Positions 570 through 13,682 of a DNA stretch of 64,000 bases are shown here, piece after piece. The position numbers and the translations under genes were made by a program. The notes under the pieces were generated by a model. That model was not told where the DNA came from, did not search any database, and saw only the letters and a list, made by a program, of their open reading frames with translations. How positions within the stretch are numbered: the first letter of the stretch is position 1; each line of letters begins with the position of its first letter. Source of the DNA: Candidatus Zambryskibacteria bacterium RIFCSPLOWO2_01_FULL_39_39 (lineage in GTDB: Bacteria > Patescibacteriota > Minisyncoccia > Phycocordibacterales > WO2-35-19); assembly GCA_001823925.1 (NCBI GenBank), contig MHWB01000011.1, positions 25,471 through 89,470 on the forward strand, written 5' to 3'.

Positions 570-2006
570 TTAGTCCTTCCTTGGAAATAGAGGCTTTTCT
601 GGAACTTTATTTTCTTTTATGAGAGATTTTATTTTTGCAGAAGTTTCTGGGAGGATTGGGTTTAACATACGAGCAACGGAATAAAGTCTTACAACAAGAC
701 TGGAAATCATTTCTTTTCCTTTTTCTTTATCTTCTTTTACTACTTTAAACGGCTGATTGTCTTGGATATATTTATCCATTCCCCCTATTTCTTTCCAAAT
801 AAAATCACAAGCTTTATTTATTTCAAATTTTTCTAAGTAAGAAAAATACTGACTCATATCTTCCCATTCTGGAATCTTAACTGGCTCACTCAAGTTATCA
901 CTCGCCATTTTCATAATCCTAGAAACAAGATTTCCCAGACCGTTTGCCAATTTTGCGTTATAAGTTTGTTTGATTAAATCCATTGAGACTGGACTATCTT
1001 CAAACATAGATACTTCGGCACAAACATAGTAGCGAAGAGCTTCGGCCCCATACTCCTTCACCACATCATAAGGATTAACGGTATTACCCAAAGATTTTGA
1101 CATTTTTATCCCCCCCTCACCTGTAAAAAATCCATTGATAACAATTTGATGGGAATGGGGCAATCCCGCCGCCAAAAGCATCGCTTGCCACATTGCTGAT
1201 TGCATTCTTAAATTATCTTTACCGCAGTATTGAACAGGTGTTCCGTTTGTCCAAAATTTCTCAAACTGAATTTGGTCTTCAGACCAACCTAAAGTAGATA
1301 CGTAGTTGACGAGCGCATCAAACCAAACATACATCACCTGATCAGTATCTCCGGGCACCGGTATACCCCACGGCATTTTTGACTTGAGTCTCGATATAGA
1401 AAAATCTTCTAAGCCTCTTTCTACAAATAACCTTATCTCATTTAAGCGAAAGTCTGGCACCACAAAATTGGAGCGACTCTTATATAAATCTAACAGTTGT
1501 TTTTGAAAAGAAGAAAACTTAAAAAAATAATTTTCTTCGTCTATAAGCTCCACTTCCAGATTTGGATGAATTGGACACTTACCCTCAATTAATTCAGAAT
1601 CTGTTTTTTCTAACTCACAACCAACACAATATCTTATCTTATAAGATTTTTTATAAATAAAACCATTTTTATCACAAATCTTCCAAAATTCTTGAGCAGC
1701 TTTTATATGATGTTCGTCTGTGGTTCTAACAAAATGCACGTCCGGAGATATTTGAAGCAAGTCTATAAGGCCTTTAAATTTTTGGGCCCACTCATCTACA
1801 TATTCTTGTGGATCTTTGCCGATCTCTAAAGCTTTCTGATAAATTTTAGATCCATGCTCATCAGTACCTGTGTTGAAAAACACTTCAAGTCCCTGAAGTT
1901 TTTTGGTTCGAACAATTACATCTGCCCTTATTATCTCCATAGCAAAACCAACATGGGGGTCAGAATTCACATAGGGCAAAGTAGTGGTTATGTAAAATGT
2001 CTTCAT
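570..2006 (-). CDS. metG: Methionyl-tRNA synthetase
   Basis: N-terminal LPYVNSDPHVGF (HIGH-like), KMSKSLGN, Cys knuckle CVGCE...CPIH. Confidence 0.9.
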   Translation of the reverse strand: MKTFYITTTLPYVNSDPHVGFAMEIIRADVIVRTKKLQGLEVFFNTGTDEHGSKIYQKALEIGKDPQEYVDEWAQKFKGLIDLLQISPDVHFVRTTDEHHIKAAQEFWKICDKNGFIYKKSYKIRYCVGCELEKTDSELIEGKCPIHPNLEVELIDEENYFFKFSSFQKQLLDLYKSRSNFVVPDFRLNEIRLFVERGLEDFSISRLKSKMPWGIPVPGDTDQVMYVWFDALVNYVSTLGWSEDQIQFEKFWTNGTPVQYCGKDNLRMQSAMWQAMLLAAGLPHSHQIVINGFFTGEGGIKMSKSLGNTVNPYDVVKEYGAEALRYYVCAEVSMFEDSPVSMDLIKQTYNAKLANGLGNLVSRIMKMASDNLSEPVKIPEWEDMSQYFSYLEKFEINKACDFIWKEIGGMDKYIQDNQPFKVVKEDKEKGKEMISSLVVRLYSVARMLNPILPETSAKIKSLIKENKVPEKPLFPRKD

Positions 2007-2024
2007 TGAAATTTTGAGCCGATG

Positions 2025-3131
2025 TTACATTTGGCTTCCCGATTCTTTGGGGCGTCGAGACAAGCGTTCGGCTTCAGCGGTTTTATTTTTTTCCACATCG
2101 TTCAAAAACTCAATAAGCATCGTGGCCAAAGGCACCGAGATCAAGAGACCAACAAACCCAGCCAGCTTGTAACCGACGATAAGAGCCAAGATAGATACGA
2201 GCGGTGGTACTCCGACAATCTTGCGTACCACTAGTGGATATATGAGCTGATTTTCAAATTGTTGGATAATTATATAAAGACCAACCACCAAAAGAGCCGA
2301 GGTCATACCATTGGAAACTAGAGCCAAAGTAACCGCCGGTATAGCGGCCAGGATCGGACCAAAAATCGGAATTATTTCAAACATTCCAGCCAAAACGGCA
2401 AGGAGAAGAGCATTGTCGATTCGCATTAGAGTAAGACCCAAAAACACAAGCATTGCGATAATGATAGCCAAGACTACCTGCCCCTGCATCCAAAGACCGA
2501 TTTTGTGTTGAGACCTTTTCCACAGACCTAAAACATATTTTTCATTTTTGGCTGGAGTAACAATGCGTAAGAAATTGGAAACCCCATCAGACTCAACGGA
2601 TAGATAAAAAGATAGAACAACCACTAAAAGAAAACTTAAAATTCCACCGAAAACAGTGCTCGCGGTAGAGAAAAATCCATTTGATAAACTGGATACAGTA
2701 GTATTGATTTGTTCAACTATTTGGGAAAGAGAAAAAGTTTTAGAAAATCCCTCTACGGCAGAGTTTGAGCTAAAAAATTCTGTGTTTGATAGAGGATTCC
2801 AAACTTGGAGTTCTCCTAAATATCCGGGCAAGGTAGACAGGAGCGTCGCCGATTGATTTAAGAGGGGCAAAAAGAGGAAATAAAACATTAAAACCAAACT
2901 CATCACTGCCACCGAATATATAAAAAGGACTGAGATAATTCTGGGTATTCCCAGACGCAAAAACCATTGGGTACCCGGCTCCACCGCAGAGGCGATTATA
3001 ACCGCGAGCAAAACTACCAACACAATGTCTCGCAAGTAATAAAAAGCAACAAAAATCGAGACAATGAGCAGGGCCTTCATGATCGTCCCCGAACTTATTT
3101 GAATTATTTTATCACTTCTACCAATTGCCAT
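2025..3131 (-). CDS. AI-2E family transporter (UPF0118 / PerM-like membrane protein)
   Basis: Multi-TM 368-aa protein with the characteristic AI-2E-like layout. Confidence 0.65.
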   Translation of the reverse strand: MAIGRSDKIIQISSGTIMKALLIVSIFVAFYYLRDIVLVVLLAVIIASAVEPGTQWFLRLGIPRIISVLFIYSVAVMSLVLMFYFLFLPLLNQSATLLSTLPGYLGELQVWNPLSNTEFFSSNSAVEGFSKTFSLSQIVEQINTTVSSLSNGFFSTASTVFGGILSFLLVVVLSFYLSVESDGVSNFLRIVTPAKNEKYVLGLWKRSQHKIGLWMQGQVVLAIIIAMLVFLGLTLMRIDNALLLAVLAGMFEIIPIFGPILAAIPAVTLALVSNGMTSALLVVGLYIIIQQFENQLIYPLVVRKIVGVPPLVSILALIVGYKLAGFVGLLISVPLATMLIEFLNDVEKNKTAEAERLSRRPKESGSQM

Positions 3132-3151
3132 AATCTATATTATATCATTTT

Positions 3152-3409
3152 TTATTTATAAATATCATGCGTTCCAACGGCATGAAATCGTACATGGCCC
3201 GAATCAACAAAAGTGAAACCGATTCTGTAATAATAACTTATTGAGAAAGCCCAATAATCTTTCATTGCCCCATGCAACTTATGAGTTTTTAGTCGTAGAT
3301 CAAAAGGATTGTTTCTGAATATTGTCTCAATTGCCAACGCCTTCATTTTTACATCTTTTGGAAGTTTTTTGAACTGCTTTAAAAATTTCAGAGAATAATC
3401 AATTACCAT
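3152..3409 (-). CDS. Type II toxin, RelE/ParE family
   Basis: 85 aa; KLHGAMKDYWAFSI...RIGFTF pattern; immediately downstream of a small antitoxin-like ORF. Confidence 0.55.
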   Translation of the reverse strand: MVIDYSLKFLKQFKKLPKDVKMKALAIETIFRNNPFDLRLKTHKLHGAMKDYWAFSISYYYRIGFTFVDSGHVRFHAVGTHDIYK

Positions 3410-3414
3410 GATTA

Positions 3415-3630
3415 TTACATTAAATCTTTTAGAGATTTTAGTGTTTTAAATTTTCCCGTAGCAAAATCTTTTTCACTTTCCATAATACTTTCTATTAATT
3501 TTTGATCCTCAAATGCTCTAATAGAATCGCGAAACAATTCGCTTGCAGAGGCATAATTATTTTCTTTAATAAGATTATTTATTTTATCCCTAAAACTTTG
3601 AGGCATTGAAATGTTTAGCGTTGTTCTCAT
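3415..3630 (-). CDS. Antitoxin (ParD/CopG-like ribbon-helix-helix) paired with the 3152-3409 toxin
   Basis: 71 aa; position and size; 6-nt gap to the toxin. Confidence 0.5.
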   Translation of the reverse strand: MRTTLNISMPQSFRDKINNLIKENNYASASELFRDSIRAFEDQKLIESIMESEKDFATGKFKTLKSLKDLM

Positions 3631-3658
3631 TTAAATTTAATTATTTCTAATACGACCA

Positions 3659-3677
3659 GTGTAGCACAATGTGCTAC
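3659..3677. promoter_or_regulatory. Palindrome gtagcac-aat-gtgctac upstream of the toxin-antitoxin operon; candidate operator
   Basis: 7-bp perfect inverted repeat about 30 bp upstream of the antitoxin start; no T-run, so not a terminator for glyQS. Confidence 0.3.
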
Positions 3678-3699
3678 AGGGTGCAACTTACTCATCAAT

Positions 3700-5034
3700 T
3701 TATAAGACTTTTTCTTTAATATACTCGACTAAATCTTTTTCTGACACTCTTTCTTGTTTGCCACTGTCACGGTCGCGAACAGTAACACCTGTAGATTTTT
3801 CAATCGTATCAAAATCTATAGTCACACAAAAGGGTGTGCCTATCTCGTCTTGTCTTCTATATCTTTTGCCAATATTACCATTATCATCAAATTCAACGGC
3901 CCCAAATTCTTTTTTAAGCTTTTGGTACACTTCCCTAGCCTTTTCTACAAGCTGTGGTTTGTTTTTGAGTAATGGAAATACAGCTACTTTCACCGGAGCT
4001 AATTTTGGAGTAAGTTTTAAATAACCTCTAACTTCCCCACCAAGCTCATCTTCAGTATAAGCTTCAAGCATTACAAACAAGAAGGCCCTATCAACTCCCC
4101 CAGAACACTCAACATCCCACGGAATAAATCTTTCTTTTGTTTCTTCATCATAATAAGACATATCGACTCCGGAATATTCTGTGTGTCTCCTTAAATCCCA
4201 ATCTGCCCTATGGTGTATTCCCCATGCTTCTTTCCAACCAACAGATGGCATATTGTACTCTATATCCCATGCATCTTTGGCATAGTGGGCTCTTTCGTCC
4301 GCTGCATGCTGACGCAAACGCAAATTTTCTTTTTTAAAACCCAAACCAAGATACCAATCAAAAGCAAACTGTTTCCAGTACTCGTACTGCTTCATCCCTT
4401 CTTCTTCATTTGGCTTTATATAATATTGTAATTCCATCTGTTCAAACTCGCGCTGACGAAAAAGGAAGTCACGTGGGGTAATCTCATTTCTAAATGCTTT
4501 TCCTATCTGTCCAATGCCAAAAGGAATTTTTGTGTGCATTGAATCCAATATATTTTTAAAGTTAACATGCACCCCTTGTGTTATCTCCCCACGCAAATAA
4601 ACCTGATTAGCGGTCTTTTCAGCGGCACCCAACTTAGTTCCAACAAGCATGTTAAATTTTACCGGTTCAGTCCATTCAACCTTTTCTTTTTTATGAGTTT
4701 TTTCATGATCGCTAATCGCTTCGGGTTGGTCGGCACGAACTCTTTCGTGACAAATTTTGCATTCAACTAATGGATCAGTAAAAAGCTCCGTATGACCAGA
4801 CGCTTGCCAAACTTTTTCTGGCATAAGTATTGCTGCCCCCATGCCATACACATCTTCACGTTCAACGATAAATTTCTGCCAAAAATATTGCTTAATATTG
4901 TGTCTCAATTCAACACCCATGGGACCGTAATCAAAAATACCAGCCAAGCCACCATAGATTTCAGAGCCTTGAAAGATAAATCCCCTTCTTTTACAAAGAG
5001 AAACTACTTTTTCCATTTTACTATTATCTGCCAT
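3700..5034 (-). CDS. glyQS: Glycyl-tRNA synthetase (class II, dimeric GlyQS type)
   Basis: 444 aa; N-terminal GFIFQGSEIYGGLAGIFDYGPMG; class II motifs. Confidence 0.9.
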   Translation of the reverse strand: MADNSKMEKVVSLCKRRGFIFQGSEIYGGLAGIFDYGPMGVELRHNIKQYFWQKFIVEREDVYGMGAAILMPEKVWQASGHTELFTDPLVECKICHERVRADQPEAISDHEKTHKKEKVEWTEPVKFNMLVGTKLGAAEKTANQVYLRGEITQGVHVNFKNILDSMHTKIPFGIGQIGKAFRNEITPRDFLFRQREFEQMELQYYIKPNEEEGMKQYEYWKQFAFDWYLGLGFKKENLRLRQHAADERAHYAKDAWDIEYNMPSVGWKEAWGIHHRADWDLRRHTEYSGVDMSYYDEETKERFIPWDVECSGGVDRAFLFVMLEAYTEDELGGEVRGYLKLTPKLAPVKVAVFPLLKNKPQLVEKAREVYQKLKKEFGAVEFDDNGNIGKRYRRQDEIGTPFCVTIDFDTIEKSTGVTVRDRDSGKQERVSEKDLVEYIKEKVL

Positions 5035-5060
5035 GTTGAAGAGATTAACACAATTATTTA

Positions 5061-7010
5061 TTATTGCACCACCCTTTCATCTCCCATTTTAAAACCTGGG
5101 TCTCCGGAAAAATCAGTAGTGACTTCTCCAGTCCTTGTTTCTATTTTTAAACCAGTTATCTTATCAATACCAGAAAGAGAGGCTCCACCCAAAAGGCTTG
5201 GGGTTTGCCCGATTTGACTTACACTAGGTAAGAATTCAAGCTGAAAATATATTTCCTTGGCGGGAGAATCGAAACCAGTATTTGGCAAAACAGATCCCAC
5301 ACTCCAAACAACTTCATTGCTCACAGGATTGAATGAAAAAATTTCGCTCGCTGGGCTTTTTATATTAGTCCACTTTACATAAGAAGGCAGGGTGGCTCTA
5401 ACTTCCACATTGCTTACCTGATTAAAAGAATTATTAATACTCCAGACCACAGTATACGTGGTGGGCGCATCAGCCTTTGGTGGTATTGGTCCAGAATTTT
5501 CCAAGTTGCCAGCAGATCTTACTATTTTTGATGAAAGAGTGATATCGGTTGCAAGAACAATTTTTCTTGTCTCAACAGAAGAAACCATCTCCACCGAACC
5601 AGACTCTAAAATCCTTTCACCCCTAGCTTTAATGGTTATTTCTATTTCAGGCCTAACGCCTTTGGCTATATTTGAATACAGAAGGGGTGTCAATCGAAAA
5701 GATAATCTTTCTTCAGAACCCGGCCCCATATCAGAAAGCCCTGGCACCAGACGTTTATCCCACAAAATAGTATCATTTGATGACTGAAAGAATCCATTAT
5801 TTCCCGGGAGAACCCCCGATCGATTAAAAGCTCCGCCCTTAAAAGTAACTTCAACTACTGTATTAAATAATCTAGATGGCAAATTATTTTTAACCGTAAA
5901 TTCGGTGCCAATCTGCTCACCACCTTGAGCGGCAAAATCCCCATCTCCTCCTTCAATAGACACATCTAGCCCAATAAAAGGCTTTTTTACCAAAATTGAT
6001 TCCACTGACTGCGAAAACGGCACGGCTATTTTCCTTTCATCATCTAGACTCCCCGTGCCCACGTTTATCTTAAAAACTTTTTCTTCATTGTCTTGCCCAA
6101 TAATACTTCCTTTTATTGTAATTGTTTTCTTTTCTCCAGAGTTAAGGCTTCCAAATCGCCAAATATTATTGTTATACGAGGCCTTGGGTGTCGCTTCTTT
6201 AAAAACAAAACCAAATGGATATTCAACATTAACCAAAAAATCGCCCACCTTATCTTTAGAGTTTGAGGCTACTTCTACATTAAAAGAGATCTCTTGATTT
6301 GAATTAACTTCTTTGGGATAAGTGGGGGTGATTATGACCGGAGCAGAACTTATAGATATTTCATGTATTTTCTCTTTATAAAAAAGAGCGCTTGAATTTT
6401 CTACTCTATACTCTAAAGATATTTTCAATTGTTTCAACTCCTCTTTTTCTCCAAAGAAGACTACTTTAATATTTTGGTTGAAATCTTCTCCGGATTTTAT
6501 TTTATCCAAAGCAAATCTTTCTTGATCAAGTTCTTTAGTCAAATCGCTTACAGATCTCGTGCCCGCTGGATATTCTAACAGTAAGGAAGCGGAATCAAGA
6601 TCTACATTGTTGTTATTTATAATACTTATATCAAACGACACCTCTTGCCCACCTCCCACCGAAAGCGGTCCTACCACTTTTATATCAACATTTTTTGAGG
6701 AAATAGAGTTCACGCCACCAAAAAACACAAAGATGGCCACACCACAAGCGGCCACAAAAAACAAAGTGGAAAATATGAAAATTTTATTTATGAAGTTGTG
6801 TTTTTTCTGAGCCATTTTTGATACTTTAGCCGCTAACTCGTCAAAACCATTGCTTTTTGCGTTTTGCCAATTTTCTTTTATTCCCTCTGGTTCTTCTATT
6901 CGAGGATTAAATTCTGACCTCTCAGTGTGATCGATATTAGAGATATTTCTAGAATATAATTTTCTTTCAAGTCTTTCTAGCTTTTCTTTTTTTTCATCAT
7001 TGAATTCCAT
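5061..7010 (-). CDS. Hypothetical membrane-anchored protein with a large extracytoplasmic region
   Basis: 649 aa; a single TM near residues 75-100; no recognised domain. Confidence 0.4.
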   Translation of the reverse strand: MEFNDEKKEKLERLERKLYSRNISNIDHTERSEFNPRIEEPEGIKENWQNAKSNGFDELAAKVSKMAQKKHNFINKIFIFSTLFFVAACGVAIFVFFGGVNSISSKNVDIKVVGPLSVGGGQEVSFDISIINNNNVDLDSASLLLEYPAGTRSVSDLTKELDQERFALDKIKSGEDFNQNIKVVFFGEKEELKQLKISLEYRVENSSALFYKEKIHEISISSAPVIITPTYPKEVNSNQEISFNVEVASNSKDKVGDFLVNVEYPFGFVFKEATPKASYNNNIWRFGSLNSGEKKTITIKGSIIGQDNEEKVFKINVGTGSLDDERKIAVPFSQSVESILVKKPFIGLDVSIEGGDGDFAAQGGEQIGTEFTVKNNLPSRLFNTVVEVTFKGGAFNRSGVLPGNNGFFQSSNDTILWDKRLVPGLSDMGPGSEERLSFRLTPLLYSNIAKGVRPEIEITIKARGERILESGSVEMVSSVETRKIVLATDITLSSKIVRSAGNLENSGPIPPKADAPTTYTVVWSINNSFNQVSNVEVRATLPSYVKWTNIKSPASEIFSFNPVSNEVVWSVGSVLPNTGFDSPAKEIYFQLEFLPSVSQIGQTPSLLGGASLSGIDKITGLKIETRTGEVTTDFSGDPGFKMGDERVVQ

Positions 7011-7036
7011 TATCTTTAATTATAACACGAGTAGAT

Positions 7037-7615
7037 TTAAGTCGCCCTGAGAGACTCGTTGATGAGTCCTATTATTTTTGATCTTTGGGGAGCAATCATT
7101 TCCAAATCTTTTATTTCTATTTCTGAAGAAGACATCGGGATCAGTAGCTCTGGGTCGTGGCGCATATAACCCAAGACGTGCAAGATGCGAACCAGAGTTA
7201 AACATTCAGCCAAAGCAATACTTTCTTCTTTCGCGGTTATTAAAAAATCAAAAAAATTTGCAACAATACCAAAAATGGAACCATGAGCTTCTTCTTCGGA
7301 AACAAGTTTCTTTATGAGGCTAAGTATATTTGAAGCAATTCTTAATTTAAGCGGAGAATTCCTAAAGCTTTCATAAAAATTCTGCTCCGCCCTAACACTA
7401 ACAACTTTAAAGCCACCTTTGCCACGCACCAAAGAAAATTCACTGAAAGAAAAATCTTGCGAGCCTCCGCGCAATTTAGAGCGGATATTTCTAGCTCCTT
7501 GCACCCGAGCATTTATTAATCCAAAATTTTCAGTAAATATTTCTATGAGCCTATTGCTGTCCCCTTCAATTTTACTTCCGACGACAATACCCTTGGTGTG
7601 GTGTTTGTGGTACAT
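7037..7615 (-). CDS. RecO-like DNA repair protein
   Basis: N-terminal OB-fold-like GIVVGSKIEGDSNRLIEIFTENFGLINARVQGAR resembles the RecO N-terminal domain. Confidence 0.45.
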   Translation of the reverse strand: MYHKHHTKGIVVGSKIEGDSNRLIEIFTENFGLINARVQGARNIRSKLRGGSQDFSFSEFSLVRGKGGFKVVSVRAEQNFYESFRNSPLKLRIASNILSLIKKLVSEEEAHGSIFGIVANFFDFLITAKEESIALAECLTLVRILHVLGYMRHDPELLIPMSSSEIEIKDLEMIAPQRSKIIGLINESLRAT

Positions 7616-7626
7616 AAAATTAAGTT

Positions 7627-10600
7627 TTATTTAATTTTAATTTTCAATTTATAATTTTCAATTTTCAACTCTTCTCCGTCGTTTTCAGCAAAAATAATTT
7701 CATTTATATTAGTTGGTTTTTTAATTTCCGAAATAACAGAGTTCAAAAATTCTTTACCCACATTGTCCGTCTCCACCAAAAGCTCTATTGCGTCAGCTGG
7801 CATTAAATTTTTATTCTTACGAAGTTCTTGAACAGCTCTTATAAAACTTCTTAGATCACCCTCTTTTTGCAATTCTTTTGTTATTTTTGTGTCCAACTCC
7901 ACTTCTGTTTCTAAATTTTCCTGGAAGATTATTTTTTTAACATTAACTTCATCCTTTATTAATTCCAAATATTCTTCTTTATCTTTCAATTTTAAATCTT
8001 TAATTTTTAATTTACTAAGAGGTTGTCTTACTTTTATATTGGCCGTCATTCTTTTTTCTAACGCTAAAGAAACTGTTTTTCTTACCTCTTGCATCATTTC
8101 CAAAATTTCTGCGAAATGGAGCCCTTCGACTTCGCTCAGGACGGGCCAACTGCAAAGATGGACACTCTCTGGATCATTTGGAAATTTTAATTTCAAATAA
8201 ATATGTTCAGCAAAAAATGGAGTAAGTGGTGCCATATATTTTGCCAATTCTAATAAAACAAAGCGAGTGGTTGAGAGCACATTATTTTTGTCTTTTATGT
8301 CTTCCGATTTAAATCTATCTCTTGAGCGTCTAATATACCAAGTAGAAAAATCTTCAATAAAATTCAGGATGGGACGGGTTGCGCCGTAAATATCACAAAC
8401 ATTAAGTGCTTTGGTTATTTCTTTATGGAGTTCACTTAAGCGAACCAAAATCCATCTGTCCAAAACATGTTCCGACTCTTGATTATTTTCAACAACTTTT
8501 TTGTCAGAATACATTTCATAAAACGAAAGTACATTTTCAAGTTTTAAAATAACTTTTTTTGAAACTTCATCTACCCCTTTTTCAGAAAAATTTAAATCCT
8601 CGGCTTTCATGACCGGAGTTGACATGAGATAATATCTCAAACTATCTGCTCCATATTTATCAACAATAACTGTCGGGTCTTGGTAATTTTTAAGCCTCTT
8701 GCTCATTTTTTTACCATCTTCTGCTAAAACAATGCCGTTGACTACCACATTATTAAAAACTTGTTTTCCAAACAAACTAGTTGCAAAAACATGCTGGTAA
8801 TAAAACCACTTACTAATCTGGTCAAGCCCTTCGGCAATAAAGTCGGCAGGAATACGACTTTCTACTTTTTCTTTATTTTCAAATGGATAATGGTAGGAGG
8901 AAAAAGGCACTGATCCAGAATCAAACCATGTGTCCAAAACATCAGTTACCCTTTTAAAAACTATGCCTTTGTCATTAACCAATTCTACCTCATCTATATA
9001 TGGCCTATGTAAATCAAGTTCGTAATTTTCGTTATGAGGAAGTGGTACAAAATTTAGTTCTCCAAATTCAGCAAACTCTGATTTATGTATTCCTTTTTCT
9101 TTTATTTCAATTGACCTGTTCAAATTTGCCCCCTCCGTCACCATATACATAGCCGCAATCGGACCATCGTGACTCACCAAAAGAATGTTTTTATCAGAAT
9201 ATTTTTTTTCAATATTAAAAAGTAGACCCCCCATTCTCTTATTTAAGTCAAGTAAAGTCTCTCCACCATCAGGTGCTTTTTCAAATCTTTCTCTCATATT
9301 TGCAAACAATTTCCAATATTCATCCCATTTTTTACCTTCAAAATCTGGTCCCTTTTTAAATTCTCCCAGCAAATCATCTACTTTGACATCCTCTTTACTT
9401 AAATCTAAAGCTTGGCGCACAATTTCTGCAGTTTCAAGACATCTTTCAAAAGGAGAAGTAATTATTAAATCAATTTTTTCTTTTTTTATATCTTGGGCAA
9501 CAGTCTGTACTTGCTTTCTACCTTCCTTGGTTAAGGGAAAAATATTTTGGGGATCTGAATTTATAATATCCGAAATATTTTGCTCGGCTTCTCCATGTCT
9601 CATTACAAAATATTTATTGCCAGATTTTTTGGTATATTTTTGTAGCTCTTCAACTGACCCGATCACTAACCTTTCCTCTGTTTTTTCATTTTCCCAAACA
9701 GGAATAGTGTTTGCCCAAAAACGCTGTCTGCTAATAGACCAGTCACGAGCATTTTCTAACCAACTATGCCAACGACCTTCTTTGATGTGTTTTGGTTGCC
9801 AATTTATATTTTCTGCGTACTCAAGAAGATCTTTTTTTATTTTTGAAACTGAAACAAACCAGGAACTGGTGGCATAATTTAAAAGCGGAGTTTCGCACCT
9901 CCAACAGTGTGGGTATGAGTGCTCATATTTTTCCTTAGAGAAAAGGAGATTTTTTTGAGCTAATATTTTCAAAACCTCCACATCAGTTTTTTGTGGATCC
10001 TCTATTGGTTTTACAGAAAGCCCAGCCAAATCGAGAACCTCCGATCTTATAATGCCATCCATACCAACATGTTGAACAAACGGTAATTTTTCTTTTTTAC
10101 CAAGTTCCATATCATCTTCCCCAAAAGCAGGGGCAATATGAACCACCCCCGTACCACTTTCAGTGGTCACGAACGAAGTGGCATAAATCTTCCAACCATT
10201 TTTTCTATTTTCTAATGTCTTACTTTTTGAATAATCATCAAAAATTGGTTTGTAAGATTTGCCAACTAAATCTTTGCCTTTAAACTCTTCAACAATCTCA
10301 AACTTATCCTCTTTAAAAATTTCTTTGAGCTTTTCTTTAATGAGAATAAATCTAGTGAGATTTTCCATGGTCTCATCTTTCTTTTCTATTTTTACATAAA
10401 TAAAATCTGGGTTTACTGCCAAGGCAACATTGCCAGGCAGAGTCCATGGGGTAGTTGTCCAAGCCAAAATAAAAGTATTCGGTTCATCCACTAATTCAAA
10501 TTTAGCTGTTACCGCGATATCTTTAATATCTTTATAGCCTTCTGCTACTTCTGCTTGAGCTAGTGTAGTCTCACAACGCGGACAAATATACATTGATCGA

Positions 10601-11130
10601 TAATCTTTATAAATTAAACCTTTATCAAATAATTTTTTAAAAGCCCACCACTCTGACTCCATATAAGAAGCGTCCATCGTTCGATAAGGACTATCCATAT
10701 TTACCCACCGTCCAAAGCGTGGAATAAACTTATTCCAAACATCGACATAAGTAAAAATTTTATCTCGACAAAGATTATTAAATTTGCCAATTCCTATTTC
10801 TTCAATTTCTTTTTTACTTTTGATACCTAATTCCTTTTCAACAATATTTTCAATTGGTAGACCGTGTGTATCCCAGCCCCACCGCCTCTCAACGAAGCGC
10901 CCCCGCATTGTCTGATAGCGCGGAATCACATCTTTCATAACACTTGCTACCAAGTGGCCATAGTGAGGTGTTCCGGTAGCAAATGGAGGTCCATCATGAA
11001 AAACAAAAGGTTTATTATTTTTTGTTTGCTCTAGAGATTTTTCAAAAATTTTGTTATCTTCCCAGAATTTCAGTATTTCTTCTTCTCTTTCGGCTATTTT
11101 TGACTTTTGGTTTCCCTCTATCATACTCAA
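7627..11130 (-). CDS. ileS: Isoleucyl-tRNA synthetase carrying an internal histidine-phosphatase (PGM-like) domain insertion
   Basis: HYGH and KMSKRL motifs, WCISRQR-like WSISRQRFW. Residues ~505-690 (nt ~9061-9618) are a complete RHG histidine-phosphatase domain (FVMRHGEAEQN ... LVSHDGPI). Confidence 0.9.
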   Translation of the reverse strand: MSMIEGNQKSKIAEREEEILKFWEDNKIFEKSLEQTKNNKPFVFHDGPPFATGTPHYGHLVASVMKDVIPRYQTMRGRFVERRWGWDTHGLPIENIVEKELGIKSKKEIEEIGIGKFNNLCRDKIFTYVDVWNKFIPRFGRWVNMDSPYRTMDASYMESEWWAFKKLFDKGLIYKDYRSMYICPRCETTLAQAEVAEGYKDIKDIAVTAKFELVDEPNTFILAWTTTPWTLPGNVALAVNPDFIYVKIEKKDETMENLTRFILIKEKLKEIFKEDKFEIVEEFKGKDLVGKSYKPIFDDYSKSKTLENRKNGWKIYATSFVTTESGTGVVHIAPAFGEDDMELGKKEKLPFVQHVGMDGIIRSEVLDLAGLSVKPIEDPQKTDVEVLKILAQKNLLFSKEKYEHSYPHCWRCETPLLNYATSSWFVSVSKIKKDLLEYAENINWQPKHIKEGRWHSWLENARDWSISRQRFWANTIPVWENEKTEERLVIGSVEELQKYTKKSGNKYFVMRHGEAEQNISDIINSDPQNIFPLTKEGRKQVQTVAQDIKKEKIDLIITSPFERCLETAEIVRQALDLSKEDVKVDDLLGEFKKGPDFEGKKWDEYWKLFANMRERFEKAPDGGETLLDLNKRMGGLLFNIEKKYSDKNILLVSHDGPIAAMYMVTEGANLNRSIEIKEKGIHKSEFAEFGELNFVPLPHNENYELDLHRPYIDEVELVNDKGIVFKRVTDVLDTWFDSGSVPFSSYHYPFENKEKVESRIPADFIAEGLDQISKWFYYQHVFATSLFGKQVFNNVVVNGIVLAEDGKKMSKRLKNYQDPTVIVDKYGADSLRYYLMSTPVMKAEDLNFSEKGVDEVSKKVILKLENVLSFYEMYSDKKVVENNQESEHVLDRWILVRLSELHKEITKALNVCDIYGATRPILNFIEDFSTWYIRRSRDRFKSEDIKDKNNVLSTTRFVLLELAKYMAPLTPFFAEHIYLKLKFPNDPESVHLCSWPVLSEVEGLHFAEILEMMQEVRKTVSLALEKRMTANIKVRQPLSKLKIKDLKLKDKEEYLELIKDEVNVKKIIFQENLETEVELDTKITKELQKEGDLRSFIRAVQELRKNKNLMPADAIELLVETDNVGKEFLNSVISEIKKPTNINEIIFAENDGEELKIENYKLKIKIK

Positions 11131-11143
11131 AATATAGCATTTT

Positions 11144-12166
11144 CTAATCCTTTTTCAAAAGGTTTTTTATTCTTTCATTTATTTGAGTTTGTAACACAAA
11201 TTGATTTCCATGTTTCAATAAACCGCTATATGACATAAGTGAGCTTACATTTTCATTTTCGTTCAAAGCTTTTACAACTCTCCTCTTTGTCGCAGTCCTC
11301 AAAACTCTGTGGGTTGGGAAATGCCCCCAGCCCAGGAAATCAACACCAGAAGATAAAGTCTTTATGAATACCTTGTTGGGATGAAGCAAAAGTTTTAGAT
11401 TTTCTTCCAAGAATTCACTAATTTTATAAGTAAGTTCCAAAAGGTAGTATTTGTCTGTACTTAGTATCACAAAATCATCTGCATATCTTATATAATATTT
11501 TACTTTCATTTGATGCTTCATCCAACTATCAAACTCATTCATGTATATGTTTACTAAAAGTTGAGATGTTAAATTTCCTAAAGGTAAGCCAACACTTTCT
11601 TTTCTAGAATCAAAACTTTTTATTACTCTCGCGAGCAGCCAAATTATCTCTTTGTCCTCTATGTGTTTGTTTAAAATATTTAAGAGAATGGTTTGATTTA
11701 TAGAAGCAAAGAACTTACGAATATCACACTTTAGAACCCAGCAAGTTTTTGTATTGTTTTTTGATACCTTTCTGCCAAAATCTCTAAATCTATTTATGGC
11801 TCTGTGAGTCCCTTTGTCTAGCCTGCAAGAATATGAATCATGTATAAAAAGTTTATCAAAGTATGGATACAGTATTTTATAGATTGCATGGTGCAAAAGC
11901 CTGTCCCTTACTATTGCCTTATGTATATTGCGAGGTTTGGGGTCTGAAATATTGAAGGCTTTGTAGCCAGCGTGGGTGTAGGTTTTTGTTTGGAGAGAAT
12001 TGTATAAAGAAATTATATTATCAAACAAATTTAACTGAAATTCCTGGGCATCTATTTTGTTTTTCTTTCCATTTAGAAACTCTTCCCAAGCTAGGAGCAG
12101 ATTTTCTATAGAAATGATATCTTTATAGTGAATAGAAGATTTTTTCATTTTATAATTAGAACACAA
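11144..12166 (-). CDS. Reverse transcriptase of a diversity-generating retroelement
   Basis: 340 aa; YADDFVIL motif 5; motif 4 is GLPLGNLTSQLLVNIYM (SQ in place of SP, the DGR RT hallmark). Confidence 0.85.
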   Translation of the reverse strand: MCSNYKMKKSSIHYKDIISIENLLLAWEEFLNGKKNKIDAQEFQLNLFDNIISLYNSLQTKTYTHAGYKAFNISDPKPRNIHKAIVRDRLLHHAIYKILYPYFDKLFIHDSYSCRLDKGTHRAINRFRDFGRKVSKNNTKTCWVLKCDIRKFFASINQTILLNILNKHIEDKEIIWLLARVIKSFDSRKESVGLPLGNLTSQLLVNIYMNEFDSWMKHQMKVKYYIRYADDFVILSTDKYYLLELTYKISEFLEENLKLLLHPNKVFIKTLSSGVDFLGWGHFPTHRVLRTATKRRVVKALNENENVSSLMSYSGLLKHGNQFVLQTQINERIKNLLKKD

Positions 12167-12182
12167 AAATTATTCCTATGAA

Positions 12183-12193
12183 CCCCCCCCCCC
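12183..12193. repeat. Homopolymeric C11 tract in the 46-bp divergent region between the RT and avd starts
   Basis: aacccccccccccgc read directly; the surrounding genome is AT-rich. Confidence 0.9.
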
Positions 12194-12212
12194 GCAATTA
12201 CAAGCAAAAAAT

Positions 12213-12572
12213 TTGGTGCCTGTGGTAATAAAATTGAAGGATAGTTATAAACTGTGGCAAGTTCTTTTAGCAATTCTACCCAAGACTTTGCGATATTCTA
12301 TGGGAATAAAAATAGATTCTCTTTTTGTTGAAGTGATAGAATACACATCCATGGCCAGCTTTTTAGAAAAAAGTGAGAAGTTGCCATATTTGAAAGTAGC
12401 TATAAGAAAAATAGATACTATAAAAATACTTCTTATGATTGTCTGGGAAAATAGAGGAATTGATGACAAAAAGTACATAACTATTTCTGAATCACTAAAT
12501 GAAGTGGGTAAAATGCTTGGTGGATGGAGCGGACAGCTTATAAAATCAGCCTCCGTTAAAACTTCGGCCTGA
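12213..12572 (+). CDS. avd: Four-helix-bundle protein of the 23S rRNA-IVS family; putative DGR accessory variability determinant (Avd)
   Basis: 119 aa; C-terminal ISESLNEVGKMLGGW matches the four-helix-bundle/Avd family; adjacent to RT and TR1. Confidence 0.55.
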   Translation: MVPVVIKLKDSYKLWQVLLAILPKTLRYSMGIKIDSLFVEVIEYTSMASFLEKSEKLPYLKVAIRKIDTIKILLMIVWENRGIDDKKYITISESLNEVGKMLGGWSGQLIKSASVKTSA

Positions 12573-12583
12573 CAAAGCAAAAC

Positions 12584-12604
12584 TCTCCCAAGAAATAGGG
12601 AGAG
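12584..12604. other. GC hairpin (ctctccc-aagaaata-gggagag) directly 3' of TR1 in the minus-strand RNA sense
   Basis: 7-bp perfect stem, followed on the minus strand by a U-rich run. Confidence 0.5.
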
Positions 12605-12616
12605 AAATGAAGAGAG

Positions 12617-12717
12617 TTGCGACGCCCCGCAAACCAGATATTGCCATTCCAGTTGCTGTCGTTACTGTTCACATTGACCTTGCGCTCATCACCGTTCCGG
12701 TTGAAGTAGACGTAACT
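12617..12717 (-). repeat. DGR template repeat TR1
   Basis: 101 bp, homologous to 13072-13172. All ~20 mismatches have T on the + strand here (A in the minus-strand sense). In-frame translation is Asn-rich. Confidence 0.85.
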
Positions 12718-12983
12718 CTGTACAAAAAACCCTCTATGCCACCACCCCTTGAAATTTTTTTAAAATAACTCGGAGTTGAATTTTATTTCGCATCATAATG
12801 CGATGGTATTCTGTACCAAGTATCTTCATTTTTTATTGAAGTTTCTACATACACCACCCTACCAAAAACCGTGATCCCCGATATTCTCGATGTATGAATA
12901 CTGGATTCGGTGGCAAGCATCCATAAACACTTGCTGATATTCACCTACTACCATATTTATATTAGCAAAATTTTGATAAATAG

Positions 12984-13015
12984 AAATCCCCATCCGCCGA
13001 AACGGGTGGGGATTT
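12984..13015. other. 13-bp-stem GC hairpin ~55 bp downstream of VR1 (minus sense); candidate DGR target-recognition hairpin/cruciform
   Basis: aaatccccatccg-ccgaaa-cgggtggggattt; one G-U pair. Confidence 0.6.
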
Positions 13016-13067
13016 GAAGGACAAAGTCCAAAGGATCCGAAAGACCCAAATGGACAAGTCCGAAGAT

Positions 13068-13682
13068 CTACTTGCGACGCCCCGCAAACCAGAGAGAGCC
13101 AAGCCAGAAGCTGACGAGACTGTCCACATGGACCTTGCGCCCATCACCGCGCCGGTAGAAGTAGACGTAACTGTTCTTTGCCCACTGCATCCCGTTGGGA
13201 TGTTTATCGGCAAAAGCCTGGTCATCTGCATTCACCTGCATTTGGGCTGCGTAGTCCGGGACAAGCCCACGTTCCTCAAACACTCGTGAAATGTCGGCGA
13301 CAGGGGTGTCTTTCTCGAGCGGGAAGAAGAGTAGGTCACCTTCTTCCGGGCCGTCCATGGGCATAGTCGCGAGGACTGTCTCGTCGACGTACCATGGTAC
13401 ACGATTGCAAGCAGAAAGTAATTGAGCCGGAGTTTTCGTCCGATCCACCTTGAAGTGGCGGATGATCACTTTAGCACGATGCTCGACGCGAGTTTTCAAC
13501 GACTCGATAAACTCTGCAATGAGTTCCTCCATCTCGTCATCTGAAACGCCTTGCACTATGTCTTTTGGGAAATTGGTACCGGCTTTCGGAAACTTGGCGA
13601 CAAATCGATCACCAATCTGTCGTGCCTGTTCCTGGGTCATTGTTTCTGTGGTTGCAATGGTTTTTTGTTCCATCGGTTGCAC
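13068..13682 (-). CDS. DGR variable target protein 1; VR at the extreme C-terminus; GC-rich gene; no signal peptide
   Basis: 204 aa; the C-terminal 34 codons are VR1; GC clearly higher than the flanks. Confidence 0.8.
   Translation of the reverse strand: MQPMEQKTIATTETMTQEQARQIGDRFVAKFPKAGTNFPKDIVQGVSDDEMEELIAEFIESLKTRVEHRAKVIIRHFKVDRTKTPAQLLSACNRVPWYVDETVLATMPMDGPEEGDLLFFPLEKDTPVADISRVFEERGLVPDYAAQMQVNADDQAFADKHPNGMQWAKNSYVYFYRRGDGRKVHVDSLVSFWLGSLWFAGRRK
13072..13172 (-). repeat. DGR variable repeat VR1
   Basis: Pairs with TR1; differs only at TR adenine positions; sits at the 3' end of the target ORF. The IMH-like end tttgcggggcgtcgcaa is shared with TR1. Confidence 0.85.

What the first reader, a model, noticed from the sequence alone, without database searches (positions are those of the whole stretch)
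9061..9618. Histidine-phosphatase (PGM-like) domain inserted in frame inside isoleucyl-tRNA synthetase
The 1167-aa IleRS is uninterrupted. Residues ~505-690, between the WSISRQRFWANTIPVW segment and the DLHRPYID segment, form a complete branch-1 histidine phosphatase domain. It has the catalytic FVMRHGEAEQN (RHG) motif and the second His in LVSHDGPIAAM. In ordinary IleRS these two segments are separated by only ~40-60 residues. A phosphatase/phosphoglycerate-mutase-like domain embedded in an aaRS catalytic core is not something I recognise as described. It could act on a nucleotide or aminoacyl-adenylate, or moonlight in signalling; that is speculation.
Basis: partly seen in the sequence, partly recalled or inferred. 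Interest (0 to 1): 0.65.

Follow-up and report, generated by a model that had tools for sequence, protein, structure and literature searches.

The report
Histidine phosphatase domain inside IleRS
An otherwise normal isoleucyl-tRNA synthetase of a tiny "candidate phyla radiation" bacterium carries a complete histidine-phosphatase domain, with its catalytic residues intact, spliced into a surface loop of its catalytic core; hundreds of related lineages keep this design and no paper in the searched library describes it.

Summary
The ORF at 7627-11130 (-) encodes a 1167-aa type-2 IleRS with intact HIGH, KMSKR and editing motifs. Residues ~503-695 (window 9046-9624) are a Pfam His_Phos_1 domain (E = 2e-30).

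- **Insertion site.** The domain sits in the distal loop of the CP3 subdomain. Insert-less IleRS have ~28-33 residues there; this protein has 228.
- **Not a one-off.** All 120 closest database clusters carry the insert, as do 100 of the 150 best 50%-identity representatives. It also occurs in Zambryski-, Yanofsky-, Specht- and Peregrinibacteria-type Patescibacteria.
- **Catalytic residues conserved.** R511, H512, R563, E590 and H654 are invariant in 121/121 close relatives and nearly so in 232 copies.
- **Autonomous fold.** AlphaFold gives pLDDT 94 for the insert alone. Its nearest structures are ~200-aa small-molecule phosphatases (PhoE, iPSP, GpgP, CobC), not dPGM mutases.
- **Other sites and domains.** Some lineages carry the same domain at two other IleRS sites, or in two copies. 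NUDIX, GNAT, a P-loop kinase-like domain and an IS200-like domain are inserted in other family members.

My best reading is an active phosphomonoesterase tethered to a working IleRS. The substrate is unknown. Coupling to IleRS chemistry is possible but unproven. Nine literature searches found no description. I rate it a new variant of a known kind (multi-domain aaRS).

The parts
7627..11130 (-). Complete ileS gene: a 1167-aa type-2 (eukaryote/archaea-like) isoleucyl-tRNA synthetase carrying the insert
   Evidence: ORF. TIGR00392 ileS scores 849.5 bits against a cutoff of 621.4. The AF2 model has pLDDT 90.5 and pTM 0.84. The best Foldseek hits are P. megaterium IleRS2 8c8v/8c8w, yeast IleRS-tRNA 8wnd and T. 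thermophilus 1ile.
10954..10968 (-). HIGH signature (PHYGH, residues 55-59) of the synthetic site
   Evidence: Translation. H59 is invariant; H56, Y57 and G58 are nearly invariant (>=90%) in 77 relatives.
10441..10461 (-). CP1 editing-site motif WTTTPWT (residues 224-230)
   Evidence: Translation. W224, T225-T227 and W229 are invariant.
9715..9741 (-). CP2-3 linker WSISRQRFW (residues 464-472). In yeast IleRS the equivalent segment lines the tRNA CCA / reveromycin pocket.
   Evidence: Translation. The homologous segment 453ARDWNVSRNRYWG465 is described in PMC7955072.
9625..9714 (-). Proximal part of the CP3 subdomain (residues 473-502, ANTIPVW...VIGSVEELQKYTKK). This protein lacks the CxxC half of the zinc knuckle that most relatives keep.
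   Evidence: CP3 is defined in PMC7955072 and PMC7191050.
9046..9624 (-). The inserted histidine-phosphatase domain (residues ~503-695, about 193 aa)
   Evidence: Boundaries come from alignment with 71 insert-less IleRS and from the core-profile map. Insert length is 187-201 aa in 121 relatives. AF2 of the insert alone gives pLDDT 94 and pTM 0.91.
9112..9609 (-). Pfam PF00300 His_Phos_1 match (residues 508-673)
   Evidence: E = 2.2e-30 and 106 bits in the whole protein; E = 1.4e-31 on the excised segment.
9592..9600 (-). R511-H512-G513: the RHG motif. H512 is the predicted phospho-accepting nucleophile.
   Evidence: R511 and H512 are invariant in 121/121 relatives. The RH pair is present in 230 of 232 aligned copies; the other two are partial alignments.
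9442..9444 (-). R563, the second phosphate-binding arginine (SPFERCLET)
   Evidence: Invariant in 121/121 and in 231/232 copies.
9361..9363 (-). E590, the predicted general acid (proton donor)
   Evidence: Invariant in 121/121. Among 232 copies it is D in three, N in one and S in one apparently degenerate copy.
9169..9171 (-). H654, the second catalytic histidine (LVSHDG)
   Evidence: Invariant in 121/121 and in 232/232 copies.
8992..9045 (-). Return into CP3: PLPHN...DLHRPYID (residues 696-713). The junction residues are strongly conserved.
   Evidence: F694, P698, H699, N700 and E704 are at least 90% conserved; D706, H708, P710 and D713 are invariant. Translation.
8695..8709 (-). KMSKS-type loop (KMSKR, residues 808-812)
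   Evidence: Translation. K808 and K811 are invariant.

Best explanation
The gene encodes a working type-2 isoleucyl-tRNA synthetase that also carries a second, autonomous enzyme. That enzyme is a ~193-aa branch-1 histidine phosphatase of the short small-molecule kind (like PhoE, iPSP, GpgP and CobC). It is grafted into the exposed distal loop of the CP3 subdomain. The IleRS part should activate Ile, charge tRNA-Ile and edit Val as usual. The inserted domain should hydrolyse a phosphomonoester by the family's standard mechanism. In that mechanism H512 attacks the phosphate, which is held by R511, R563 and H654. E590 protonates the leaving group, and the phospho-histidine is then hydrolysed. 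I think the most likely substrate is a small phospho-metabolite such as a nucleotide or a sugar, glycerate or amino-acid phosphate. On this reading IleRS mainly serves as an always-expressed scaffold, and the phosphatase does not take part in aminoacylation chemistry. What is shown: the architecture, the fold, the conservation of the catalytic residues, and the wide, old distribution. What is inferred: that the domain is catalytically active, what kind of substrate it takes, and that it acts independently of the IleRS reaction.
For: 1. Domain identity and completeness are supported.
2. The catalytic set R511/H512/R563/E590/H654 is invariant in 121/121 relatives. The insert as a whole is only 42% identical to the query, against 60-64% for the IleRS core. 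The set is kept in about 213 of 232 copies across far more distant lineages, including both copies of double-insert proteins. This is the pattern expected of an enzyme under selection, not of a spacer.
3. Outside the standard family motifs, no additional invariant or >=90% conserved positions were listed within the insert. The insert is not basic: median pI is 6.2, against 5.9 for the rest of the protein. Both points fit a small-molecule substrate better than RNA.
4. The nearest structures and profiles are small-molecule phosphatases. All dPGM, CobC and PspA equivalog cutoffs are missed.
5. The host IleRS is intact.
6. CP3 is a peripheral element. In human IARS1 it is the docking surface for another protein (PMC13439101). 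It is not listed among tRNA contacts in the yeast complex text I read.
7. The same loop holds a NUDIX domain in place of His_Phos in P0248. Other loops hold NUDIX, GNAT, a P-loop kinase-like domain or a Y1 transposase-like domain. IleRS therefore behaves as a general carrier of accessory enzymes.
8. Insert-less IleRS (P0128, L006, P0136; 53-54% core identity) are closer to the query than many insert-bearing ones (37-50%). IleRS function therefore does not need the insert.
Against: The same phosphatase family is kept together with IleRS at three different places: the CP3 loop, a site between WFDSG and KMSKS, and the linker after KMSKS before the anticodon-binding domain. Some proteins carry two copies. 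That persistence suggests selection for the physical association itself, which a mere scaffold role does not obviously explain. The junction residues (N505, F694, P698, H699, N700) are strongly conserved, and the whole-protein model has pTM 0.84. Both hint at a fixed docking geometry, not a floppy tether. The tools return no model coordinates, so I could not measure where the phosphatase pocket points relative to the synthetic site, the editing site or the tRNA path. No substrate is identified. I also could not check whether these genomes lack a free-standing equivalent.
Confidence: 0.5

Rival explanations
1. The phosphatase is functionally coupled to the IleRS reaction. It would act on something that IleRS makes, binds or is poisoned by. 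Candidates are the AMP product or other adenine nucleotides, a phosphorylated or damaged tRNA-Ile 3' end, or phosphorylated aminoacyl-adenylate-like inhibitors. Being built into IleRS would give it proximity to that substrate.
For: The domain recurs at three distinct IleRS sites and sometimes in two copies. The junction is conserved and the full model is confident. CP3 begins right after the linker that lines the CCA pocket. The co-inserted domains are nucleotide- or amine-modifying enzymes: MutT/NudI-like NUDIX, an APS/shikimate/CPT/zeta-like kinase and GNAT. From memory, PhoE-type relatives accept AMP among other substrates. A Parcubacteria HIT hydrolase detoxifies an aminoacyl-adenylate mimic (bioRxiv 10.1101/2020.03.04.977132).
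Against: The three sites are far apart in the sequence, and from memory of class Ia structures probably also on the surface. That argues against a precise active-site-to-active-site geometry. The insert is acidic to neutral and shows no additional invariant or near-invariant positions beyond the family motifs that would suggest RNA binding. To my knowledge no histidine phosphatase is known to act on RNA ends. Insert-less sister lineages exist.
Confidence: 0.28
2. The domain is a regulatory module. Either it senses a phospho-metabolite and tunes IleRS activity allosterically, or it is a protein or phospho-histidine phosphatase (SixA- or PGAM5-like) acting in signalling.
For: The SixA model TIGR00249 matches the N-terminal third at 44-48 bits. 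A rigid, conserved junction could transmit conformational change into CP3 next to the active site.
Against: The SixA match is below its cutoff (74.5) and covers only residues 507-579. The domain has the full ~190-aa PhoE-like architecture with a cap region, unlike SixA. Invariance of the general acid E590 points to turnover, not mere binding. The domain works at three different insertion sites, which is hard to reconcile with a specific allosteric path.
Confidence: 0.1
3. The insert is a catalytically dead structural filler, for example a replacement for the lost CP3 zinc knuckle, or a decaying remnant of a selfish insertion.
For: This particular protein has lost all four CP3 zinc-knuckle cysteines. 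A few distant members look degenerate, such as P0210 and P0232. An IS200-like domain sits in frame in some relatives.
Against: The catalytic residues are invariant in 121/121 relatives while the rest of the insert diverges. Most insert-bearing relatives still keep the zinc knuckle, so the insert does not replace it. Insert length is tightly held at 187-201 aa.
Confidence: 0.04
4. It is an artefact: an assembly chimera, a mis-called ORF, or an intein-like element that is spliced out.
For: None beyond the prior oddity of the architecture.
Against: The same architecture is found in hundreds of independent assemblies from ENA, JGI, NCBI and Logan, with a conserved in-frame junction. No Hint/intein family is detected. 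The residue after the junction HN is E in this protein (PLPHNEN), not the C/S/T nucleophile I recall inteins needing at that position. The domain is a histidine phosphatase, not a Hint fold.
Confidence: 0.01

Closest known systems
Type-2 (eukaryote/archaea-like) bacterial IleRS, e.g. Priestia megaterium IleRS2 (PDB 8C8V) and Thermus thermophilus IleRS (1ILE)
   Same: The overall fold and domain order match (Foldseek E about 1e-87 to 1e-70, TM to target 0.81-0.91). HIGH, KMSKS and the CP1 editing motif are intact. The C-terminal DUF5915 and anticodon-binding domains are present. In most relatives a T. thermophilus-like CxxC...CxC zinc knuckle flanks the insertion point.
   Different: A ~193-aa enzyme domain is inserted in the distal CP3 loop, where these structures have about 30 residues. 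This particular protein has also lost the CP3 zinc-knuckle cysteines.
Short small-molecule histidine phosphatases of branch 1: B. stearothermophilus PhoE (1H2E), H. thermophilus metal-independent phosphoserine phosphatase PspA (4IJ5), M. tuberculosis GpgP Rv2419c (4PZ9), CobC (6E4B/6NRU), and the riboflavin-pathway HFP (9MMH)
   Same: The fold matches (TM about 0.7-0.77, Foldseek E about 1e-12 to 1e-10) and the size is about 200 aa. The catalytic set R-H-G...R...E...H and the E-x3-G-x-[FW]-x-G cap motif are shared.
   Different: Identity is only 21-25%, and every NCBIfam equivalog cutoff is missed. These enzymes are free-standing and, from memory, often dimeric. Here the domain is embedded in a monomeric-type aaRS, with both termini tied into CP3, and it lacks the last ~28 profile positions (the C-terminal tail).
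Aminoacyl-tRNA synthetases with extra catalytic domains, e.g. NCBIfam NF040702 'isoleucine--tRNA ligase, N-acetyltransferase domain-containing', and the inserted CP1 editing domain of class Ia enzymes
   Same: The principle is the same: a whole enzymatic domain is carried within an aaRS polypeptide. GNAT-bearing members occur in this same Patescibacteria IleRS family.
   Different: The query scores 319 bits against a cutoff of 1999 for NF040702, so it is not that family. The added domain here is a phosphatase with no known role in aminoacylation or proofreading, and I found no publication on it.
Bifunctional proteins that pair a histidine phosphatase with another enzyme, e.g. M. tuberculosis Rv2228c RNase H/acid phosphatase (NF005567) and PFK-2/FBPase-2
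   Same: A branch-1 histidine phosphatase is covalently joined to an unrelated enzyme. NF005567 matches the insert at 67-71 bits. One relative (P0179) has a P-loop kinase-like domain as well as the phosphatase.
   Different: Those are end-to-end fusions, whereas this is an internal insertion into a loop of the partner's catalytic domain. The NF005567 cutoff (326) is not met.

Membership tests
Histidine phosphatase superfamily, branch 1 (Pfam PF00300 His_Phos_1) | Profile match above the curated gathering score | tested here: met
   106.2 bits in the whole protein and 110.1 bits on the excised segment, against a cutoff of 21.7.
Histidine phosphatase superfamily, branch 1 (Pfam PF00300 His_Phos_1) | RHG motif with the nucleophilic His, plus a second Arg, a second His and an acidic proton donor | tested here: met
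   R511-H512-G513, R563, H654 and E590 are present. They are invariant in 121/121 relatives and nearly so in 232 copies.
Histidine phosphatase superfamily, branch 1 (Pfam PF00300 His_Phos_1) | Alpha/beta/alpha phosphoglycerate-mutase-like fold | tested here: met
   AF2 of the insert alone gives pLDDT 94 and pTM 0.91. The 50 Foldseek PDB hits listed are all histidine phosphatases or mutases, with TM up to 0.77.
Histidine phosphatase superfamily, branch 1 (Pfam PF00300 His_Phos_1) | Phosphoryl-transfer activity via a phospho-histidine intermediate | not testable with these tools
   Needs an enzyme assay with wild type, H512A and E590A.
Cofactor-dependent phosphoglycerate mutase (dPGM) | Equivalog-level profile score | tested here: not met
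   Scores against cutoffs: NF038349 dPGM_arch 79-82 vs 225; GpmB NF002901 40-44 vs 261; PRK01112 26 vs 320; PRK01295 26 vs 316.
Cofactor-dependent phosphoglycerate mutase (dPGM) | Mutase-type features: the H-G-N motif after the second His and a C-terminal tail closing the pocket (recalled from the family literature) | tested here: not met
   The second His is followed by D-G here and by E/G/N/D then Y/T/G/A in relatives. The Pfam match stops at profile position 166 of 194 before the chain re-enters CP3. True dPGMs rank below the small phosphatases in Foldseek.
Alpha-ribazole phosphatase CobC / metal-independent phosphoserine phosphatase PspA / phosphohistidine phosphatase SixA | Equivalog-level profile score | tested here: not met
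   Scores against cutoffs: TIGR03162 73-76 vs 162.9; NF045917 55-57 vs 350; TIGR00249 44-48 vs 74.5, with only residues 507-579 matched.
Isoleucyl-tRNA synthetase (TIGR00392), type 2 | Equivalog profile score above cutoff | tested here: met
   849.5 bits against a cutoff of 621.4, in two stretches interrupted by the insert.
Isoleucyl-tRNA synthetase (TIGR00392), type 2 | Class I signature motifs HIGH and KMSKS and the CP1 editing motif | tested here: met
   PHYGH 55-59, KMSKR 808-812 and WTTTPWT 224-230. H59, K808, K811, W224, T225-T227 and W229 are invariant; the remaining HIGH residues are >=90% conserved.
Isoleucyl-tRNA synthetase (TIGR00392), type 2 | Fold closest to type-2/eukaryote-like IleRS and not to type 1 | tested here: met
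   Type-2 structures 8c8v/8c8w, 8wnd and 1ile give E 1e-87 to 1e-70 at 30-33% identity. Type-1 structures 8c9e and 1qu2 give E 1e-57 to 1e-50 at 22%. MupA and MupB models score 685-707 bits.
Isoleucyl-tRNA synthetase (TIGR00392), type 2 | Ile-specific aminoacylation of tRNA-Ile | not testable with these tools
   Needs a biochemical assay.
NCBIfam NF040702 ileS_w_GNAT (IleRS containing an N-acetyltransferase domain) | Profile score above cutoff and presence of a GNAT domain | tested here: not met
   319 bits against a cutoff of 1999. There is no GNAT Pfam hit in the window's protein.
Intein / self-splicing insertion | Hint-domain fold and splice-junction residues (C/S at the N-junction, HN followed by C/S/T at the C-junction; recalled) | tested here: not met
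   No Hint or intein family among the Pfam hits. The insert folds as a histidine phosphatase. In this protein the junction HN is followed by E (PLPHNEN), and the insert begins S-G-N-K.

The most novel reading that the evidence does not exclude
Patescibacteria IleRS may be a modular platform. Small-molecule-modifying enzymes (histidine phosphatase, MutT-like NUDIX, GNAT, P-loop kinase) have been repeatedly grafted around its active site because they act on ligands of IleRS itself. They might clear nucleotide by-products such as AMP or Ap4A. They might instead inactivate aminoacyl-adenylate-mimicking or other IleRS-targeting antibiotics at the target. That would make it a 'self-defending' or 'self-cleaning' synthetase, which would be a new functional class of aaRS accessory domain.
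Probability: 0.12. Interest if true: 0.85.

Novelty: new variant of a known kind. Interest (0 to 1): 0.62.

Why it matters
- **aaRS evolution.** Acquisition of new domains by aaRS is usually described as a hallmark of eukaryotes. Here an ultra-small bacterial lineage has put a second, apparently active enzyme into the catalytic core of an essential synthetase. It has kept that enzyme across at least 100 clusters at 50% identity.
- **A possible selected association.** The same phosphatase recurs at three different IleRS sites, next to NUDIX, GNAT and kinase-like insertions. This suggests a selected and experimentally testable link between IleRS and small-molecule phosphate or nucleotide chemistry in organisms whose metabolism is poorly understood.
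- **Annotation.** Public sources mostly name these proteins 'class I tRNA ligase family protein'. Metabolic reconstructions may therefore miss both the IleRS assignment and a phosphatase activity.
- **Protein engineering.** The CP3 loop, the pre-KMSKS loop and the linker before the anticodon-binding domain are shown by nature to tolerate insertions of 150-650 aa.

Tried and rejected
1. A database search with the rare post-KMSKS insert of P0215 was meant to show whether embedded copies are closer to each other than to free-standing phosphatases. It returned one fragment only, because of the word index. The origin of the insert stays unresolved.
3. My first catalytic-residue tally used a wrong column offset and gave nonsense. 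It was redone correctly.
4. The model tools return no coordinates. I could not measure distances or orientation between the phosphatase pocket and the synthetic site, the editing site or the tRNA path. The CP3 position rests on published descriptions.
5. The NJ/Fitch estimate of at least ~21-23 gain/loss events among 188 sequences (shuffled mean 57) is crude. Tree error inflates it, so I use it only qualitatively.
6. Gene neighbourhood: RecO, a DUF11 protein, a class II aaRS and an AI-2E transporter are syntenic among Paceibacteria, but none suggests a phosphatase partner. There is no free-standing His_Phos paralog in the window, and none next to ileS in insert-less Patescibacteria loci.
7. 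I considered and rejected an intein, an assembly chimera and a true dPGM mutase (see the membership tests).
8. The antisense ORF 9185-9877 (+) overlapping the insert is a shadow of the conserved coding strand, not a gene. Its only 'homologs' lie antisense to other ileS genes.
9. A weak Tpt1-like hit in the CP1 insertion of P0232 (E = 0.002, 17.8 bits) is treated as chance.
Full report
**The observation**

The window carries an uninterrupted 1167-aa ORF on the minus strand, 7627-11130. NCBIfam identifies it as isoleucine--tRNA ligase: TIGR00392 scores 849.5 bits against a cutoff of 621.4.

Pfam splits the class I catalytic domain in two. A His_Phos_1 match lies between the halves, at residues 508-673, with E = 2.2e-30 and 106 bits against a cutoff of 21.7.

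The finding's coordinates 9061-9618 correspond exactly to residues 505-690. All quoted motifs are present: WSISRQRFW 464-472, RHG 511-513, H654 in LVSHDG, and DLHRPYID 706-713. GC content is unremarkable across the insert.

**Boundaries and host element**

I aligned the protein with 80 IleRS genes fetched from GTDB species genomes. The stretch from the conserved W (W479) to the conserved D (D706) is 24-51 residues, typically 28-33, in 71 insert-less proteins. It is 213-240 in nine insert-bearing proteins and 228 here. The net insertion is about 193 aa, roughly residues 503-695 (window 9046-9624).

Published IleRS structures name this element the CP3 subdomain: yeast residues 459-526 and Candida residues 473-534. 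It begins right after the CP2-3 linker WxxSRxRxWG, which lines the tRNA CCA / reveromycin pocket (PMC7955072; PMC7191050). T. thermophilus CP3 has a zinc-binding motif. The family consensus keeps CxxC before the insert and CxC after it. The window's own protein has lost all four cysteines.

In human IARS1, CP3 is an exposed surface that docks the LARS1 UNE-L domain (PMC13439101). The text of the yeast IleRS-tRNA paper that I read does not list CP3 among tRNA contacts.

**The host is a normal type-2 IleRS**

In 77 relatives H59, K808, K811, W224, T225-T227 and W229 are invariant, and the remaining HIGH residues are at least 90% conserved (PHYGH, KMSKR, WTTTPWT). The full-length AlphaFold model is confident, with mean pLDDT 90.5, pTM 0.84 and insert blocks at 92-97.

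Its best PDB matches are P. megaterium IleRS2, yeast IleRS with tRNA, and T. thermophilus IleRS (E 1e-87 to 1e-70). These rank ahead of type-1 enzymes.

**The insert is a complete phosphatase that looks active**

Modelled alone, the insert folds with pLDDT 94 and pTM 0.91. Its nearest solved structures are all ~200-aa small-molecule phosphomonoesterases:

- H. thermophilus and Entamoeba phosphoserine phosphatases
- PhoE
- mycobacterial GpgP and related hydrolases
- the riboflavin-pathway HFP
- CobC

TM scores are about 0.7-0.77 and identity is 21-25%. True dPGM mutases rank lower. A sequence search of the PDB agrees. No NCBIfam equivalog cutoff is reached for dPGM, GpmB, CobC, PspA or SixA. 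The domain is therefore a family member of unknown specificity, of the phosphatase type and not the mutase type.

In 121 close relatives the insert is 187-201 aa long. R511, H512, N518, R563, E590 and H654 are invariant in 121/121. Meanwhile the insert as a whole is only 42% identical to the query, against 60-64% for the IleRS core.

Across 232 copies from far more divergent proteins, 195 show the full signature and 19 deviate in the catalytic core. Most of those differ at N518, and one or two look degenerate. Beyond the standard family motifs, no additional invariant or near-invariant positions are listed in the insert. Its median pI of 6.2 matches the rest of the protein.

**Distribution**

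All 120 best 90%-identity clusters (52-100% identity) carry PF00300. Where named, they come from Zambryskibacteria (73% identity, the closest named hit), Wolfe-, Yonath- and Pacebacteria, Minisyncoccota, and 'Patescibacteria group'.

In the exhaustive search of 50%-identity representatives, 100 of the best 150 carry the domain. In the capped GTDB sample it is present in Paceibacterota, Yanofskybacteria, Spechtbacterales and Peregrinibacteria/Peribacteria loci. It is absent from Saccharibacteria, Magasanikbacteria, some Peribacteria and all non-Patescibacteria.

Over core columns, the ~118 closest relatives all have the insert. The closest insert-less proteins (53-54% identity) are nearer than many insert-bearing ones at 37-50%. 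Crude trees interleave the two states. The insert has therefore been lost, or the gene replaced, several times, and IleRS works without it.

**Unexpected extensions**

I mapped every insertion of at least 60 aa against an insert-less core profile. Together with Pfam and NCBIfam scans, this gave five recurrent sites:

| Site | Position | Inserted domains and examples |
|---|---|---|
| A | CP1, after ~q217 | NUDIX (P0162, P0228, P0269) |
| B | CP1, after ~q273 | NUDIX (P0210); IS200-like Y1_Tnp (P0227, P0244); unidentified segment (P0232) |
| C | CP3 loop | His_Phos in ~213 proteins; two tandem copies in L008 and P0154; NUDIX instead in P0248 |
| D | Between WFDSG and KMSKS | His_Phos (P0172, P0175, P0243); GNAT + His_Phos (P0259, P0249); GNAT (P0244); P-loop kinase-like domain (P0179) |
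| E | Linker between KMSKS region and anticodon-binding domain | His_Phos (P0215, P0231, P0246, P0270; second copies in P0146 and P0243) |

The non-CP3 phosphatase copies are 33-43% identical to CP3 copies. They score 78-150 bits with the CP3-insert profile, against 38 bits for a free-standing Firmicute homologue. Copies at the same site tend to be each other's best hits.

**Interpretation**

Four things are shown:

- the architecture
- the autonomous fold
- selection on the catalytic residues
- a wide, old and patchy distribution

Inferred: the domain is an active phosphomonoesterase using the standard phospho-histidine mechanism.

I favour a second activity that is independent of aminoacylation, with IleRS as a scaffold (confidence 0.5). 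My reasons are these:

- CP3 is peripheral.
- The same loops accept unrelated enzymes.
- The insert shows no RNA-binding signature.
- Close relatives do without the insert.

The main rival (0.28) is real coupling to IleRS ligands. Its support comes from the persistence of the phosphatase with IleRS at three sites, the conserved junction, and the nucleotide- or amine-modifying nature of the co-inserted domains. A Parcubacteria HIT hydrolase that detoxifies an aminoacyl-adenylate mimic gives thin precedent for a detoxification theme.

The sensor, pseudoenzyme and artefact readings are unlikely.

**Novelty**

Nine full-text searches with varied vocabulary found no description of a histidine phosphatase in any aaRS (one search returned only structure papers). 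The sequences are public but mostly named only 'class I tRNA ligase family protein'.

NCBIfam's ileS_w_GNAT model shows that domain-bearing IleRS are a recognised kind. I therefore rate this a new variant of a known kind, with interest 0.62.

Noticed in passing
window 11144-13682 (RT 11144-12166 -, bAvd-like 12213-12572 +, TR 12617-12717, VR 13072-13172 inside ORF 13068-13682 -): A diversity-generating retroelement lies immediately upstream of ileS. It comprises an RVT_1 reverse transcriptase with a GNLTSQ motif, a bAvd-like four-helix protein, and a 101-nt repeat pair at 84% identity. In the alignment I read, every mismatch falls where the + strand TR has T, which is A on the coding strand. 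That is the adenine-specific DGR signature. The variable copy sits at the C-terminal end of a 204-aa ORF with no Pfam hit.
   Followed up: yes
P0162, P0210, P0227, P0228, P0244, P0248, P0249, P0259, P0179, P0269 (relatives of the window's IleRS): Other Patescibacteria IleRS carry further in-frame enzyme domains. MutT/NudI-like NUDIX occurs in CP1 or in the CP3 loop. GNAT and a P-loop small-molecule kinase-like domain occur before KMSKS. An IS200-like Y1 transposase domain occurs in CP1. Up to three different inserts are found in one protein (P0244), and P0249 reaches 1859 aa.
   Followed up: partly
L008:7893-12308 (Peribacteria, 1472 aa); P0154, P0146, P0243: Some IleRS have two histidine-phosphatase copies. 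They are tandem in the CP3 loop (L008, P0154) or at two different sites (P0146, P0243). Both copies keep the full catalytic set. The two copies in one protein are not each other's best matches, so the duplication is old.
   Followed up: partly
window 9625-9714 and 8950-8991 (residues 473-502 and ~714-727): The window's IleRS has lost all four cysteines of the CP3 zinc knuckle (VWENEKTEE... and ...VELVNDKG). Most insert-bearing relatives keep them (consensus VWxCxxC ... CxCGG). Presence of the zinc knuckle varies independently of the insert.
   Followed up: partly
L002:8553-8555 (Peregrinibacteria locus): The ileS gene of this insert-bearing locus has one in-frame TAG between two otherwise continuous halves of the ORF. 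This could be a sequencing error, a pseudogene or recoding; I did not resolve it.
   Followed up: no
window 570-11130: Three aaRS genes lie within 11 kb on the same strand: MetRS 570-2006, a class II HGTP-anticodon aaRS 3700-5034, and IleRS. An AI-2E transporter, a DUF11 protein and RecO lie between them. The class II aaRS and the DUF11 protein are found near ileS in five other Paceibacteria loci, RecO in two. Neither of the other aaRS carries a phosphatase insert.
   Followed up: partly
window 9185-9877 (+): A 230-aa antisense ORF overlaps the insert. Its only similarities are to the antisense strand of other ileS genes, so it is a shadow ORF and not a gene.
   Followed up: yes
database entries P0006, P0018, P0019, P0023 and others: Public sources mostly name these proteins 'class I tRNA ligase family protein' and not isoleucine--tRNA ligase. 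Automated reconstructions may therefore under-call IleRS in these genomes.
   Followed up: no
P0232 residues 277-457 (CP1 insertion): An unidentified 181-aa insertion has only a weak similarity to RNA 2'-phosphotransferase (Tpt1/KptA model: E = 0.002, 17.8 bits against a cutoff of 279). This is probably chance, but it is noted because of the tRNA connection.
   Followed up: no
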